NCBI GenBank assembly: GCA_022510845.1
Contig: JAFLSR010000011.1
Coordinates: 2,128-66,127 of the forward strand
Direction: 5' to 3'
From: Treponema sp.
GTDB taxonomy: Bacteria > Spirochaetota > Spirochaetia > Treponematales > Treponemataceae
Length of the DNA: 64,000 nucleotides
Shown here: in pieces, positions 21,143 to 64,000 of the stretch
Position numbering within the stretch: position 1 is the first letter of the stretch
Layout: every line of letters begins with the position of its first letter
The notes under the pieces: model-generated
Told to the model about the DNA's origin: nothing
What the model saw: the letters and a program-made list of their open reading frames with translations, nothing else
The model's database searches: none
Position numbers and translations under genes: made by a program

Positions 21143-21256
21143 TATAAAATGCGAGCCTTGCGAGCAAGCAAAACGATGGCAAAACATTGGCTTGCGTTTA
21201 AATCCCGCGTGCAAATCGGCAGTTTTTTTTCAAATTTTTGCGAATTCCTGAAAATA

Positions 21257-21354
21257 TTTGCGGAAAAACGCAAACGTATTTCCGCAAATAAATTTTCGAA
21301 TTACCGCAAAAATTCACGCCGATTTGCGGAAATAAATTCACGTATTTCCGCAAA
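21257..21354. repeat. Two TTTGCGG-N18-CCGCAAA units, 66 bp apart, upstream of ileS
   Basis: Units at 21257-21288 and 21323-21354; CGTATTTCCGCAAATA directly repeated at 21275 and 21341. Confidence 0.8.
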
Positions 21355-27584: not shown

Positions 27585-29000
27585 TTAATGGCCGCTTATA
27601 TATTTCCTGTATTTTTCGGGATTCACTCTGAACGCAACAATTGGAGAATCTGCGTCCTCGCTTGCGTGGAACAAAGCTTGCTCGGCTTCCGTCTTGAGTC
27701 GGTCCACGGAAATCAGTCGCAGCGAACGGCTTGAAATTCCGATGACGGGCTTCGCATTTTGCTTTGCTTCTTTTAGAATGTTTGCGAGTGCCGCATACAA
27801 TTTTTCTGCGCTTTGCATCGCGTCATCAACGTCCTTGTCTTGAATGATTGCCGCAAAGCCGTCCGTCTTGTATTCAAAAATAAAATCCTTGTATTGAAAA
27901 GTATCCAATAACGCTTCGCAGATTTTTGGATGGCATTCGTGCTTTGAAGTGATTCCCGGAATTCGAACAAGGACAAGCGCCAAATCTTGCTCGCTGGAAG
28001 CGGCGCGGACGAGTTCGCTTTCAAGGCGTTGCGAAAGATATGATTCCCATCCGAATCCGCTTGCGGGCGAAAACAAACCTTGCTCATCGCTTCCGTTGGT
28101 TTGGGAAATTTGTTTTGGACCGAGCGTTTGGCCGGGCGATGTGGAATCCTGCTCTTCATCTTCTTGCGCCTCATTTTCTGCTGGCTCTTCCTGCGCAACG
28201 GTTTTTTCATTTTCGAAATCTGGCTCAGGCAAAACAGGATTTTCAGGAAGCGCGGCATTTGAGTTTTCAACAGAATCTTTTGCGCCAACTTCGACTGCGG
28301 TTTTTTCTTCTTCGGTCTTTTCCTCGGAAACTTGCGAATTGCTTTCGTCCGAAAATTTTGGCTCGTCCTCTTCCTGCGAATCGATTTCTTCTTCAAGCAA
28401 GTCTTCTTCCGGCAAGTCGATGTCGTCTTCAAGCGAATTCTCTTCGCCAAAATCATCGTCATCAAAAAGCGACTTTTGTGCCTCGTCGCTTTTCTTTGTC
28501 TTCATTTCGGAGTCCGAAAGATAAAGGTACATCAGCAAAATGCAAGTTGTAAGAGTTCCTGCCAAAATTACGATGAACGCGATTTTCGCGCGGTCGAAAA
28601 TCATCGTCGGCGAAAGCGCGTAGATGTTCGCGAAAAGTTCGATTCGTGAGCCGTCGCCGCCTGCGATTCGCGTGCTGAAAGTTTTTACAAAAAACGAATT
28701 TGATTTTGTGGGAACGGAAGGATAGAGGTAAACTTCTGTTCCGTCAACTTCAAGTCTGAGCAGTTCGTAGAAATTGGGCGCGCCCACTGCGGAATTGAAT
28801 GCGTCGATGAATTCTTTCGAGCCGGAAGGATAGATGCCGCTCGTTTCTGCCGTCTTGGAAGAAAGTTTTTCAAATCTTGTGGCGGCACTTTCTGCGCCAG
28901 ATTTATAATCGTTATAAACGCTTGCTGCAAAAGCCGCGATGGTCAGAACAAAAACACAGGCAATCAAAATCGCCGCAATGGAAATACCGCTCTTTCTCAT
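27585..29000 (-). CDS. Membrane protein with acidic linker and degenerate GGDEF-like C-terminal domain
   Basis: Two TM helices, Asp/Glu-rich middle, C-terminal RLESELVRAA...LALVLVRI...FEYKTDGFAAII...VIGIS fold pattern without a GG(D/E)EF motif. Confidence 0.65.
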   Translation of the reverse strand: MRKSGISIAAILIACVFVLTIAAFAASVYNDYKSGAESAATRFEKLSSKTAETSGIYPSGSKEFIDAFNSAVGAPNFYELLRLEVDGTEVYLYPSVPTKSNSFFVKTFSTRIAGGDGSRIELFANIYALSPTMIFDRAKIAFIVILAGTLTTCILLMYLYLSDSEMKTKKSDEAQKSLFDDDDFGEENSLEDDIDLPEEDLLEEEIDSQEEDEPKFSDESNSQVSEEKTEEEKTAVEVGAKDSVENSNAALPENPVLPEPDFENEKTVAQEEPAENEAQEDEEQDSTSPGQTLGPKQISQTNGSDEQGLFSPASGFGWESYLSQRLESELVRAASSEQDLALVLVRIPGITSKHECHPKICEALLDTFQYKDFIFEYKTDGFAAIIQDKDVDDAMQSAEKLYAALANILKEAKQNAKPVIGISSRSLRLISVDRLKTEAEQALFHASEDADSPIVAFRVNPEKYRKYISGH

Positions 29001-62185: not shown

Positions 62186-63286
62186 TTAGTCTTCTTTCAG
62201 CCGGTAGTTCGTGCTGCGTCCGCCCGCTGTCGGCACGCGCTCTAGAATGCCTTTTTCGATGAGGTCGGTGATGTCGCGCAGAGCGGTGTCGGCGGAGCAT
62301 TTTGCGATTTTCGCCCATTTCGACGAGTTCAATACGCCGAACCAGTCGCCGCCTGTGAGCCGCTCCAGCATGTGCGACTGCCGCTCGTTCAGAGGAACGC
62401 CCACAGTCTTTTGGCGGAACGAGTATTTTTTGAGGACGTTTTCCGTTTCCACGATGCTTTCGTCCAAGGCTTTTTGCAGACAGTCCAAGAACCACACGAG
62501 CCAGTTTGTGATGTCAGGCGAGCCGTGTTGCGCGCGCTCCAGAGCATTGTAGTATTTTTTCTTTTCGAGCGAGATTTGGCTTGACATGCTGTAGAAGCGG
62601 AGATTCGTGCGGTCGCTGCGGCAGAGCATCATGTCGGAAATCGTCCGCGCGATTCGTCCGTTCCCATCCTCAAATGGATGGATGGTGACGAACCAGAGGT
62701 GCGCTATTGCGGCGGCTATGAGTGAGTCCTCCGCTTTTTTCGGGGAATTTAGCCAGCCGAGAAATGCGTCCATCTCTTTCGGAACGCGCCTTGCGGGCGG
62801 TGCTTCGTAATGCACTTTTTCCTTGCCGATTCTGCCTGAGACCACTTGCATCGCGCCCGAGCGATATTGCGCCACCTCGATTCTGCTCATGCCGCTGTAG
62901 CCCGTGGGAAAAAGGCAGGCGTGCCATGCGAAGAGCCGTTCCTTGGTGAGAGGTTTTCCGTATTTCTGCGTTGCGTCAAGCATCATTTCCACGATCGCGT
63001 CCACGTTCCTGTCTGTTTTCACTGGCTTCCGCAAATGGATTCCGAGCCTCCTCGCGATTGACGAGCGCACTTGATCCGAATTGAGCAAAAATCCTTCGAT
63101 TTCGCTTGACTTGATGACATCGTTCGCAATTGTGAGCAGGGTTTTGTCTTCCTTTTGAGAAAGCCCTAGAAGTTCCATCTTCGCGAGCAGCCGCCCCTGC
63201 GTCATGTGACAACCCTCTAGCAGCGGAGTGAGCCTTTTCGAGTCATACGAAAAACTAGGCCATTCGGCGTACTCATAGATATACAT
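62186..63286 (-). CDS. Fic family protein (DUF4172-like N-terminus, C-terminal HTH)
   Basis: Complete Fic motif HPFEDGNGRIAR; inhibitory-type SSEIEG motif; C-terminal SSKWAKIAKCSADTALRDITDL HTH. Confidence 0.93.
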   Translation of the reverse strand: MYIYEYAEWPSFSYDSKRLTPLLEGCHMTQGRLLAKMELLGLSQKEDKTLLTIANDVIKSSEIEGFLLNSDQVRSSIARRLGIHLRKPVKTDRNVDAIVEMMLDATQKYGKPLTKERLFAWHACLFPTGYSGMSRIEVAQYRSGAMQVVSGRIGKEKVHYEAPPARRVPKEMDAFLGWLNSPKKAEDSLIAAAIAHLWFVTIHPFEDGNGRIARTISDMMLCRSDRTNLRFYSMSSQISLEKKKYYNALERAQHGSPDITNWLVWFLDCLQKALDESIVETENVLKKYSFRQKTVGVPLNERQSHMLERLTGGDWFGVLNSSKWAKIAKCSADTALRDITDLIEKGILERVPTAGGRSTNYRLKED

Positions 63287-63292
63287 GAGATT

Positions 63293-63321
63293 ATTGTAGG
63301 ATTTTTTGCGGAGATTGTCAA
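63293..63321 (-). promoter_or_regulatory. sigma70 promoter, leaderless Fic transcript
   Basis: Minus strand TTGACA - 17 nt - TACAAT, then 6 nt, then ATG 63286. Confidence 0.8.
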
Positions 63322-63402
63322 TCTATTCGCCGCAAAATTTGCGGTGAATAATGAAATAAACACCGCATATTTTGCGGCGATTACGCGGATATTCACCGCA
63401 TG
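63305..63402. repeat. Three TTTGCGG-N18-CCGCA units at 33-bp period over the Fic promoter
   Basis: TGCGG at 63307, 63340, 63373; CCGCA at 63330, 63363, 63396. Confidence 0.88.
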
Positions 63403-63411
63403 ACGCTTTTT

Positions 63412-63849
63412 TCACATCGTCTTTCTGAACTGCATCTGCTCCTTCACCCGCGCGTAGCCGCACGAAGCGTAGAACTCATGCGCTTCTTTTCTTTCCATGC
63501 CGGAACAGAGCCGCACGGATTTGCCGCCGATTCCGCGCGTCCATTCTTCTGCTGCTTGCAGCAAGGCGCGCCCGATTCCTTTTCGTCTGAAATTTTCTGC
63601 GACGGCGATTCCCATTATGTTTGAAGCGAGCGGAGAAAATGTCGTGGCGTAGGTGCACACATGGATGTAGCCTGCGACCGCGCCGCAGTATTCCGCGACG
63701 AAAACGGCATTGTTTGCGTCTCCGAGAATTTCAGAAAGGACATCGCGCGTTTTTTCTATGCCGAATTCGTATCCGAGGGCGCGGGCGTTTAGGCAAGCGA
63801 TTTTCTCCGCGTCAGAAATTTCCGCAGTCCTGATTGTGATTTTTTGCAT
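63412..63849 (-). CDS. GNAT family N-acetyltransferase
   Basis: IAVAENFRRKGIGRALL acetyl-CoA motif; AHEFYASCGY. Confidence 0.9.
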   Translation of the reverse strand: MQKITIRTAEISDAEKIACLNARALGYEFGIEKTRDVLSEILGDANNAVFVAEYCGAVAGYIHVCTYATTFSPLASNIMGIAVAENFRRKGIGRALLQAAEEWTRGIGGKSVRLCSGMERKEAHEFYASCGYARVKEQMQFRKTM

Positions 63850-64000
63850 GATGATTTTCGCGGTGTTGCCCGCATTCTCCTTCTGTGCAATTTATTTCTT
63901 ATAATTTCAGACAATGAGAAAAGTGTCAAGTTTTTCATCATTGAAAAACCGCAATAAATAGGCGAGGTTTGTCGTAATGCAAATGTTTTTTCGCAACATT

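What the first reader, a model, noticed from the sequence alone, without database searches (positions are those of the whole stretch)
63293..63402. Phased 33-bp operator-like array on a leaderless Fic-HTH promoter
Three tandem TTTGCGG-N18-CCGCA(A/T) units have conserved ends and three different 18-nt cores. The period is exactly 33 bp (about three helical turns), and the junctions form CCGCA-N5-TGCGG palindromes. Unit 1 brackets the -35 of a near-consensus promoter whose +1 falls on the Fic ATG. The Fic has a C-terminal HTH, so cooperative, phased autorepression is plausible. With the same element upstream of ileS, this is the best candidate here for an undescribed Fic-centred regulatory system.
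Basis: partly seen in the sequence, partly recalled or inferred. Interest (0 to 1): 0.72.

Follow-up and report, generated by a model that had tools for sequence, protein, structure and literature searches.

The report
Self-operator array of a Fic enzyme
Six 10-bp DNA words laid at a 33-bp period over the promoter of a Treponema Fic (protein-AMPylating) gene are most likely where the enzyme's own DNA-binding tail shuts the gene off. This kind of circuit is known, but the DNA word of this widespread subfamily is in no paper I could find.

Summary
Three TGCGG-N18-CCGCA units lie at 63307, 63340 and 63373, exactly 33 bp apart. They sit between a GNAT gene and a minus-strand DUF4172-Fic-wHTH gene. 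Its promoter is TTGACA-17-TACAAT, with the ATG 6 nt after the -10, so the mRNA is probably leaderless.

The true repeat is a 10-bp half-site, TGCGGnGA(A/T)T, in six alternating copies. The same half-sites, with the same 18-19 and 14-15 bp spacings, lie upstream of nearly every homologous Fic gene across many phyla: 79 of 81 loci, a 43-fold local enrichment. No neighbouring gene is conserved.

The half-site sequence changes together with residues of the Fic recognition helix. This helix-to-site covariation points to the Fic protein itself as the binder, that is, to autorepression. The principle is published for CccR of Yersinia pseudotuberculosis and suggested for SoFic. The closest solved relative, CbFic2, was tested only with random DNA.

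New here are the subfamily's operator word and layout. The Treponema-clade version differs from the common one: a continuous 33-bp chain, the -35 inside the proximal unit, and a leaderless start.

The claimed "same element upstream of ileS" is a different, species-specific dispersed repeat that shares only the outer skeleton.

The parts
62186..63286 (-). Fic gene, 366 aa: DUF4172 N-terminal domain with inhibitory motif SSEIEG (residues 60-65), Fic motif HPFEDGNGRIAR (203-214), C-terminal winged HTH (301-363)
   Evidence: ORF. Pfam DUF4172 E 5.5e-28 and Fic E 6.2e-18. Full-length match to PDB 8CIL (CbFic2), E 6.9e-92. AF2 model, pLDDT 91.6.
63284..63286 (-). ATG start codon, probable transcription start (leaderless mRNA)
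   Evidence: The -10 ends at 63293, followed by 6 nt (AATCTC) and the ATG. The same -10 / 6 nt / ATG geometry holds in 8 spirochaete loci. The TSS has not been mapped.
63293..63298 (-). -10 hexamer TACAAT
63316..63321 (-). -35 hexamer TTGACA, inside the 8-bp centre of the proximal unit
   Evidence: The equivalent position in L001, L002, L082-L084, L086 and L089 holds TTGCTA, TTGCCT, TTGATT or TTGACC.
63307..63334 (.). Unit 1 (promoter-proximal): half-sites 63307-63316 (TGCGGAGATT, + strand) and 63325-63334 (ATTCGCCGCA). The first lies in the -35/-10 spacer.
   Evidence: PWM scores 16.6 and 16.1 bits.
63340..63367 (.). Unit 2: half-sites 63340-63349 (TGCGGTGAAT) and 63358-63367 (AAACACCGCA, the weakest site, 10.7 bits)
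63373..63400 (.). Unit 3 (distal): half-sites 63373-63382 (TGCGGCGATT) and 63391-63400 (ATTCACCGCA). It ends 12 bp from the GNAT stop codon.
63325..63349 (.). Junction palindrome ATTCGCCGCA-N5-TGCGGTGAAT, the alternative candidate for a dimer site
   Evidence: Zero mismatches to the family junction pattern; such junctions lie only at Fic promoters in the Fic-bearing relatives.
63358..63382 (.). Second junction palindrome AAACACCGCA-N5-TGCGGCGATT. On the minus strand it also reads as a terminator-like hairpin followed by TTTATTTCAT.
63412..63849 (-). Upstream GNAT acetyltransferase gene. It is not conserved next to Fic in other genomes.
   Evidence: Neighbour analysis.
21256..21354 (.). ileS-upstream array of TTTGCGGAAATA / TATTTCCGCAAA words: a different, dispersed repeat, not part of the conserved Fic operator

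Best explanation
The array is the self-operator of the Fic gene.

[quoted passage not shown] The recognition helix (residues 332-344, ...CS-A-D-T-A-L-R-D...) reads 10-bp half-sites, TGCGGnGA(A/T)T. Six half-sites alternate in orientation. They are 18 bp apart within a unit and 15 bp apart across a junction, which gives the 33-bp period, close to three helical turns.

The proximal unit holds the -35 hexamer in its centre, and its downstream half-site fills the -35/-10 spacer. Bound Fic should therefore keep RNA polymerase off a strong, leaderless promoter (negative autoregulation). The two upstream units would raise occupancy by neighbour contacts.

Shown here: the anatomy; the link of the motif to Fic genes across phyla; the conserved spacings; the helix-to-site covariation; the absence of any other conserved linked gene.

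Inferred: that binding occurs, that it represses, that it is cooperative, and which pair of half-sites one dimer holds.
For: 1. Link to the gene. In 81 homologous loci from Spirochaetota, Bacteroidota, Proteobacteria, Verrucomicrobiota, Acidobacteriota, Chloroflexota and others, the half-site (up to 1 mismatch) has 19.8 sites per kb at -200..+10 against 0.46 per kb in the rest of the loci. 79 of 81 loci have at least one site and 66 have at least three.

2. Rigid geometry. The start-to-start spacing of > < pairs is 19 (105 cases) or 18 (16 cases). That of < > pairs is 15 (91) or 14 (20). In 41 loci with the common > < > > < > layout the gaps are 19 / 15 / variable / 19 / 15, and all six sites score 13-15.6 bits.

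3. Covariation with the protein's own helix.
- S-x-D-T-A goes with TGCGG in 92 of 92 loci. A non-Asp residue at the Asp position goes with A at base 3 (TGAAG, TGAGT, TGACC) in 19 of 19.
- CSKD(T/S)A(I/V)R goes with TGC(A/G)AC.
- R to N goes with TTCGG.
- Residue x sets base 6: Q gives A in 79% of half-sites; S, T and N give T or C in 80-96%. Ala, as in this window, gives a mix, and the window's six sites do read T, C, T, T, C, A at base 6. Fisher test p = 2e-10. Of 8 phylogenetically independent pairs, about 6 go the same way and none the opposite way; sign test median p = 0.03.
- These residues lie in the first turns of helix 332-344 of the AF2 model, pLDDT 91.6. That helix aligns with the third wHTH helix of CbFic2 (PMC10628234).

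4. No other candidate binder. The most common neighbouring gene family occurs in only 5 of 81 loci.

5. Specificity in this genome and its relatives. Units and junctions with up to 1 mismatch occur only at the Fic promoter in this genome. In relatives they lie just upstream of Fic.

6. Promoter overlap is conserved in the spirochaete clade.

7. Precedent. CccR autorepresses through 10-bp boxes at -35/-10, shown by footprint, EMSA, ITC and reporter (PMC9755527). The SoFic dimer binds the first 100 bp upstream of its gene (10.64898/2026.07.09.737422). CbFic2 binds DNA through its HTH domain (PMC10628234).
Against: There is no binding or expression data for this protein or this subfamily's motif.

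CbFic2, the closest characterised relative, bound random DNA with nanomolar affinity, partly outside the HTH domain (PMC10628234). Sequence specificity is therefore inferred from genomes alone.

The covariation has few independent events for the large specificity switches: 4 changes on the tree, 2 on supported branches.

The stoichiometry is unclear. The common layout has three half-sites per module, an odd number for a symmetric dimer.

A period of 33 bp is 3.1 turns, not an exact multiple.

The TSS is predicted, not mapped.
Confidence: 0.8

Rival explanations
1. The half-sites are bound by another trans-acting factor (a host regulator or nucleoid protein), not by Fic. Fic genes would merely share a common regulatory input.
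For: No direct binding data exist. A skeleton-sharing motif (TTTGCGG-N18-CCGCAAA) also lies upstream of ileS, nrd-like and nadE-like genes in this genome, which could hint at a wider regulon.
Against: The motif follows the Fic gene across a dozen phyla in unrelated genomic contexts with no conserved neighbour. It covaries with Fic's own recognition helix. The ileS-type repeat is absent from Fic-bearing congeners and scores about 5 bits lower per half-site.
Confidence: 0.06
2. The array acts mainly at the RNA level or as a terminator. As the 3' end of the GNAT transcript it folds into hairpins that stop read-through into Fic.
For: The minus-strand RNA folds at -48.4 kcal/mol, z = -5.4. The junction hairpin CGCCGCA-AAATA-TGCGGTG is followed by TTTATTTCAT. 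The array starts 12 bp after the GNAT stop codon.
Against: The strong fold follows automatically from any array of inverted repeats. No U-run follows the full hairpin. Arrays with the same words and spacings occur where the upstream gene differs or points the other way. Half-site bases are conserved beyond what pairing needs, and they covary with a protein helix. A secondary terminator role for the one junction hairpin is not excluded.
Confidence: 0.05
3. The array is chiefly an allosteric DNA platform, not a transcriptional brake. It assembles Fic dimers and sets the AMPylase/deAMPylase balance, and repression is a side effect.
For: In CbFic2, DNA of 20 bp or more induces dimerisation and changes activity (PMC10628234). 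The operator offers six high-quality sites, more than simple occlusion of one promoter needs.
Against: Promoter overlap is conserved in every layout: the -35 or -10 lies inside a unit, and in the common layout a site abuts the ATG. This is what repression predicts. No data exist on the enzyme activity of this protein. The two roles are compatible rather than exclusive.
Confidence: 0.08

Closest known systems
CccR of Yersinia pseudotuberculosis (Fic + C-terminal HTH autorepressor; PMC9755527; PDB 7XUX appears among the weak hits)
   Same: Same domain plan: N-terminal dimerisation helix, Fic core, C-terminal HTH. The protein represses its own promoter through 10-bp boxes near -35 and -10, and dimerisation is needed for binding.
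   Different: Only the Fic core of 7XUX (named only 'Fido domain-containing protein' in the hit table) aligns with this protein (E 4.9e-8). The CccR operator is two boxes (AGATAATCAT ... ATGATAATCT) 26 bp apart. Here there are six TGCGGnGAAT half-sites at 18/15-bp spacings. CccR is a T6SS-delivered effector; nothing of that kind is seen here.
CbFic2 of Coxiella burnetii (PDB 8CIL; PMC10628234)
   Same: Closest solved relative, aligned over the full length including the wHTH (E 6.9e-92, residues 2-363). It has the same class II inhibitory motif and Fic motif. DNA binding through the HTH domain and DNA-induced dimerisation are shown experimentally.
   Different: Only random DNA was tested, and the authors leave open whether a specific site exists. 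Its recognition helix reads S-R-T-T-A-Y-R-E where the window has S-A-D-T-A-L-R-D, so by the covariation table it should prefer another word. I did not fetch its locus. It is studied as a host-directed effector; this one is a gene of a rumen-type Treponema.
SoFic of Shewanella oneidensis (PDB 3EQX; bioRxiv 10.64898/2026.07.09.737422)
   Same: A class II Fic with a wHTH. The dimer, but not the monomer, binds the first 100 bp upstream of its own gene, and autoregulation is proposed.
   Different: A distant relative: only the Fic core aligns (E 7e-7). No motif has been defined for it.
Common six-site operator of this Fic subfamily (> < > [-35] > < > ATG), as seen in 41 of the loci analysed here
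   Same: Same half-site word, same 18-19 and 14-15 bp spacings, and six sites in all.
   Different: In the window and its Treponema relatives the chain is continuous (> < > < > <). The -35, not the -10, lies inside the proximal unit. No site abuts the ATG, and the mRNA is leaderless. The window is the only spirochaete locus seen with three full units.

Membership tests
Class II Fic AMP-transferase with DUF4172 and C-terminal wHTH (CbFic2 / SoFic / CccR architecture) | Fic active-site motif HPFx[D/E]GN[G/K]R | tested here: met
   HPFEDGNGRIAR at residues 203-214 (translation). H203, P204, D207, G208, N209, G210 and R211 are invariant in 40 homologues.
Class II Fic AMP-transferase with DUF4172 and C-terminal wHTH (CbFic2 / SoFic / CccR architecture) | N-terminal inhibitory helix motif (S/T)xxxE(G/N) | tested here: met
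   SSEIEG at residues 60-65. I63, E64 and G65 are invariant. It aligns with TSAIEG of CbFic2 (PMC10628234).
Class II Fic AMP-transferase with DUF4172 and C-terminal wHTH (CbFic2 / SoFic / CccR architecture) | DUF4172 N-terminal domain | tested here: met
   PF13776, E 5.5e-28, residues 2-83 matching positions 1-82 of the 82-position profile.
Class II Fic AMP-transferase with DUF4172 and C-terminal wHTH (CbFic2 / SoFic / CccR architecture) | [quoted passage not shown] | tested here: met
   AF2 model, pLDDT 91.6: helices 301-311, 321-328 and 332-344, then strands 348-351 and 360-363. The alignment to 8CIL runs through its HTH domain.
Class II Fic AMP-transferase with DUF4172 and C-terminal wHTH (CbFic2 / SoFic / CccR architecture) | AMPylation / deAMPylation activity | not testable with these tools
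   Needs biochemistry.
Fic-wHTH autorepressor circuit (as shown for CccR) | The protein binds palindromic boxes in its own promoter | not testable with these tools
   Indirect support only: covariation of the recognition helix with the half-site, and no other conserved linked gene.
Fic-wHTH autorepressor circuit (as shown for CccR) | Boxes overlap the -35/-10 elements | tested here: met
   The -35 lies in the centre of unit 1, and half-site 63307-63316 lies in the spacer. This is conserved in the clade.
Fic-wHTH autorepressor circuit (as shown for CccR) | Same box sequence and spacing as CccR (10-bp boxes, 26-bp spacer) | tested here: not met
   The word here is TGCGGnGAAT, with 8-bp and 5-bp spacers. 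CccR has AGATAATCAT-N26-ATGATAATCT (PMC9755527).
Operator of the CbFic2-like subfamily (defined here from 168 loci) | Half-site TGCGGnGA(A/T)T, or a variant matched to the helix, with > < spacing 18-19 and < > spacing 14-15 | tested here: met
   The six window sites score 10.7-16.6 bits on a PWM trained without the window. Their spacings are 18 / 15 / 18 / 15 / 18.
Operator of the CbFic2-like subfamily (defined here from 168 loci) | Common layout > < > > < > with the -10 inside the proximal unit and a site at the ATG | tested here: not met
   The window has > < > < > < with the -35 inside the proximal unit. This variant is shared with Treponema relatives, and the > < > < class holds 14 loci.
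Leaderless mRNA | Transcription starts at or within a few nt of the start codon, with no Shine-Dalgarno sequence | tested here: inconclusive
   The sequence geometry fits: -10, 6 nt, ATG, no SD. It recurs in 8 spirochaete loci.
Intrinsic terminator (of the upstream GNAT gene) | GC-rich hairpin followed by a U-run | tested here: inconclusive
   One junction hairpin with a TTTATTT tail fits the scan. The full-array hairpin has no U-run after it.

The most novel reading that the evidence does not exclude
The operator is more than a brake. It may be the specific DNA ligand that dimerises this Fic and sets its AMPylase/deAMPylase state.

In this one Treponema species, weaker operator-like units (TGCGGAAATA-N8-TATTTCCGCA, same unit geometry, about 11 bits per half-site) have been spread by a dispersed repeat of about 110-125 bp to the upstream regions of ileS, an nrd-like gene, a nadE-like gene and others. 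This would give the enzyme a species-specific set of secondary docking sites, acting as a regulon or as a DNA sink.
Probability: 0.1. Interest if true: 0.8.

Novelty: new variant of a known kind. Interest (0 to 1): 0.6.

Why it matters
Fic enzymes with a DNA-binding tail are widespread. The SoFic preprint cites more than 1,500 species for this domain plan. Their physiological DNA target is defined for only one distant member, CccR. For the CbFic2-like subfamily the published work used random DNA and left open whether a specific site exists.

The genomes answer that question in outline. They give a 10-bp word, a fixed six-site layout on the gene's own promoter, and a simple helix-to-base code: residue x sets base 6, and Asp333 goes with C3-G4-G5. 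This makes several things directly testable with oligonucleotides:
- autorepression;
- stoichiometry on a three-half-site module;
- DNA-dependent switching of enzyme activity.

The Treponema version also shows how the same operator was refitted onto a leaderless promoter.

Tried and rejected
- Rfam search of the region (E up to 10) and of the whole window (gathering scores): only chance miRNA/snoRNA hits and two tRNAs. No known RNA family.
- "Same element at ileS": rejected. The ileS-type units need 4 mismatches to the Fic unit pattern. Their junction geometry differs: about 26 bp against 15 bp between 10-mer starts, derived. They are absent from 60 relatives. TTTGCGG is a common word in this genome, 1,276 copies on both strands, which makes a shared skeleton less surprising.
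- A second Fic or wHTH paralogue that might read the ileS-type word: none found by tblastn at E up to 10.
- A conserved neighbour (antitoxin or regulator) as the binder: none.
- Metagenome scan with a single distant protein found nothing. It was repeated with an alignment.
- Literature search for the motif words found only unrelated miR-124 target sites. No further Fic-operator paper turned up.
- Compositional island: there is no clear GC anomaly around the gene.
- The CRISPR-like and iteron readings were considered at the start. I dropped them because the repeat is a palindromic half-site array tied to one promoter.

Full report
**1. What is there**

The window is part of a 2.2-Mb, 47.5% GC draft genome (86 contigs). 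Its closest Fic loci are in rumen-type Treponema MAGs.

Minus-strand ORF 62186-63286 encodes a 366-aa protein with DUF4172 (E 5.5e-28) and Fic (E 6.2e-18) domains. A GNAT acetyltransferase gene (63412-63849, minus strand) lies upstream. The finding sits in the 125-bp gap between the two genes.

Three exact TGCGG-N18-CCGCA units start at 63307, 63340 and 63373. CCGCA-N5-TGCGG junctions lie at 63330 and 63363.

On the minus strand the scan finds TTGACA-17-TACAAT (63321..63293; 11 of 12 consensus matches), followed by AATCTC and the ATG. No alternative in-frame start lies upstream. The DUF4172 profile starts at residue 2, so the start codon is right and there is no room for a leader or a Shine-Dalgarno sequence.

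Read more closely, the repeat is a 10-bp half-site, TGCGGnGA(A/T)T. It occurs six times in alternating orientation, 18 bp apart within a unit and 15 bp apart across a junction. The correction is that the "different cores" are only the central 8 bp.

**2. The motif belongs to the gene, not to the genome**

A scan of one genome per species found more than 596 relatives of the protein. I read the best 80, which share 51-78% identity. Upstream of almost all of them stand several copies of the same word, in Bacteroidota, Alpha-, Beta- and Gammaproteobacteria, Verrucomicrobiota, Acidobacteriota, Chloroflexota, Nitrospinota and Treponema.

| Measure | Value |
|---|---|
| Half-site density at -200..+10 (up to 1 mismatch) | 19.8 per kb |
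| Half-site density in the rest of the loci (chance level) | 0.46 per kb |
| Loci with at least one site | 79 of 81 |
| Loci with at least three sites | 66 of 81 |
| > < spacing, start to start | 19 (105 cases) or 18 (16) |
| < > spacing, start to start | 15 (91 cases) or 14 (20) |

The commonest layout (41 loci) is > < > [-35] > < > ATG. Its gaps are 19 / 15 / variable 18-22 / 19 / 15, and all six sites are about equally conserved at 13-15.6 bits.

No flanking gene is conserved. The largest neighbour family is present in 5 of 81 loci.

In the window's own genome, units and junctions with up to 1 mismatch exist only at this promoter. There is only one such Fic gene in the genome.

The gene is patchy: 6 of 37 genomes of the genus carry it, this one included. 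In 61 related genomes the junction palindrome (up to 1 mismatch) lies just upstream of Fic in the Fic-bearing genomes that use the N5 spacing. Otherwise there are five single one-mismatch hits in about 140 Mb.

**3. Who reads it**

The protein aligns over its whole length with CbFic2 (PDB 8CIL; E 6.9e-92), including that protein's HTH domain.

An AlphaFold2 model built on 40 homologues (pLDDT 91.6, pTM 0.85) gives a winged HTH: helices 301-311, 321-328 and 332-344, followed by a beta hairpin. Helix 332-344 begins A332-D333-T334-A335-L336-R337. It aligns with the third helix of the CbFic2 wHTH, the one bearing Y341 (PMC10628234).

I added 80 more distant loci from metagenomes and 7 from related spirochaetes. 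I then called half-sites de novo as inverted 10-mers at the family spacing. This needed no TGCGG assumption and gave calls for 117 of 168 loci. The word changes with this helix, while the spacing stays the same in every class:

| Recognition-helix signature | Half-site word |
|---|---|
| (C/T)S-x-D-T-A-L-R | TGCGGnGAAT |
| CSKD(T/S)A(I/V)R | TGC(A/G)ACGAAT |
| (V/T)SQ(A/P)TA-R | TGA(A/C)GnGAAT |
| (V/T)SRATA(F/Y)R | TGAAGCGATT |
| VSRATAQR | TGAGTCGATT |
| VSRETVKR / VSAASAKR | TGACCCnATT |
| CSTDTALN (R to N) | TTCGGnGAAT |

Asp at position 333 goes with C at base 3 in 92 loci, and a non-Asp residue goes with A in 19 loci. There are no exceptions, but only 4 changes on the tree.

Within the Asp class, residue 332 sets base 6. 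The shares below are of half-sites:

| Residue at position 332 | Base 6 |
|---|---|
| Gln | A 79% |
| Ser | T or C 87% |
| Thr | T or C 96% |
| Asn | T 80% |
| Ala (as in the window) | A 43%, T 38%, C 16% |

The window's six sites do read T, C, T, T, C, A at base 6, as the Ala row predicts.

At locus level the Fisher p is 2e-10. I built a tree without the wHTH columns. On it, 8 independent pairs on supported branches differ in residue class. Base 6 goes the same way in about 6 of them and never the other way (sign test median p = 0.03).

This is the pattern expected if the Fic wHTH itself reads the word.

**4. The Treponema version**

In the window and in spirochaete relatives (41-78% protein identity) the layout is rearranged. 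The chain is continuous (> < > <). The proximal unit carries the -35 (TTGACA, TTGCTA, TTGCCT, TTGATT or TTGACC) in its 8-bp centre. The -10 follows after 16-17 bp, and the ATG follows the -10 by exactly 6 nt in the eight loci where the scan found this geometry; in two of them the ATG picked lies 3 or 6 nt upstream of the aligned start.

The period is 33 bp in these loci (18+15 or 19+14), or 32 in one locus. The window is the only one seen with a third complete unit.

**5. Mechanism**

Most likely (0.8): Fic binds the six half-sites through its wHTH and occludes its own strong promoter. The half-site at 63307-63316 fills the -35/-10 spacer, and the -35 lies between the two half-sites of unit 1. 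The upstream units add occupancy.

The following remain inferences:
- that binding occurs;
- that it represses;
- that it is cooperative;
- whether a dimer holds a unit (centres 18 bp apart) or a junction (centres 15 bp apart).

The odd number of half-sites per module in the common layout is unexplained.

Published precedent:
- CccR autorepresses through two 10-bp boxes at -35/-10 (PMC9755527).
- The SoFic dimer binds the first 100 bp upstream of its gene (10.64898/2026.07.09.737422).
- CbFic2 binds DNA through its HTH domain, and DNA of 20 bp or more induces dimerisation and changes its activity. Only random DNA was used, and the authors state that a specific site may exist (PMC10628234).

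**6. Rivals**

- Another factor binds the sites (0.06). Covariation with Fic's own helix and the lack of a conserved partner argue against it.
- A terminator or RNA structure for the GNAT gene (0.05). The RNA would fold strongly (-48.4 kcal/mol, z = -5.4), and one junction hairpin has a T-rich tail. But any inverted-repeat array folds well, and the array persists in unrelated upstream contexts. A secondary terminator role is possible.
- An allosteric platform rather than a brake (0.08, and not exclusive of the main reading).

**7. The ileS element**

Upstream of ileS (21256-21354) lie TTTGCGGAAATA / TATTTCCGCAAA words. Two of them form TGCGG-N18-CCGCA units.

They are part of a repeat of about 110-125 bp, whose three most similar copies (upstream of ileS, of an nrd-like gene and of a nadE-like gene) are near-identical. 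Related arrays lie at three further intergenic sites. Several copies break contigs.

The genome holds 13 such palindromic units. None of 60 related genomes holds a convincing match, including the five congeners with Fic; six of them have single three-mismatch hits only.

The half-sites score 10.7-11.4 bits on the family PWM, against 15-16.6 for five of the six sites at the Fic promoter. The junction geometry differs. TTTGCGG is a frequent word in this genome.

So this is not the same element and not a conserved Fic regulon. Weak binding by Fic cannot be excluded (novel case, probability 0.1).

**8. Novelty**

The kind of circuit is known. I found no paper that gives the operator word, the six-site layout or the helix-to-base code of the CbFic2-like subfamily.

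Earlier notes of this scan on other genomes reach the same reading. They are not independent evidence, and I reached mine before reading them.

Verdict: a new variant of a known kind. Interest 0.6.

Noticed in passing
window 21256-21354; also G000 C36:18-114, C51:18-114, C32:7787-7913, C45:45906-46023, C45:76581-76677, C34:1-45: A dispersed repeat of about 110-125 bp made of TTTGCGGAAATA / TATTTCCGCAAA words, with termini that are themselves inverted. It lies upstream of ileS, an nrd-like gene, a nadE-like gene, a TetR-like gene and others. Several copies end contigs. It has 13 palindromic units in this genome and none in 60 relatives. It could be MITE-like or a species-specific regulatory module.
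   Followed up: partly
G000 C34:45-250 (outside the window): About five tandem copies of a 22-23-bp unit (CACCCCTCTCCGTGTACTGTCAG) lie directly beside one copy of the dispersed repeat. A similar GTGCTCA(A/G)CAC-type tandem lies at C41:800-900.
   Followed up: no
L012:4110-4160 and L074 (about 1110-1150 nt after the Fic match start): Two of 81 loci carry an extra > < > operator module immediately after the Fic stop codon. L074 largely lacks the upstream module.
   Followed up: no
L086 / L091 (G033 C17:265947-267176); L085 (G040): The Fic homologue of one congener matches in two overlapping pieces (query residues 1-161 and 156-364), with no stop reported, so it may be frameshifted. Another homologue has an in-frame TAG. 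Both keep intact operator units and a leaderless-type promoter.
   Followed up: no
window 63901-63929 (minus strand): Promoter-like TTGACA-17-AATTAT with a TG extension, about 50 nt upstream of the GNAT start codon.
   Followed up: no
whole genome G000: The most frequent 12-mers are T7-8 runs flanked by GC (GCGATTTTTTTT, GCGGATTTTTTT and their complements), 25-37 copies each. TTTGCGG occurs 1,276 times on both strands.
   Followed up: no
L090 (G039 C19) and metagenome loci L099-L116: In the SRATA-helix subfamily the operator is often a single unit or > < > module lying downstream of a TATAAT box, with a normal Shine-Dalgarno leader in L090. Here the same protein family appears to use a roadblock position rather than promoter occlusion.
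   Followed up: partly
window 28365-28445: A 36-bp tandem repeat, 2.2 copies, 77% matches, reported by Tandem Repeats Finder. It is probably inside a coding region.
   Followed up: no
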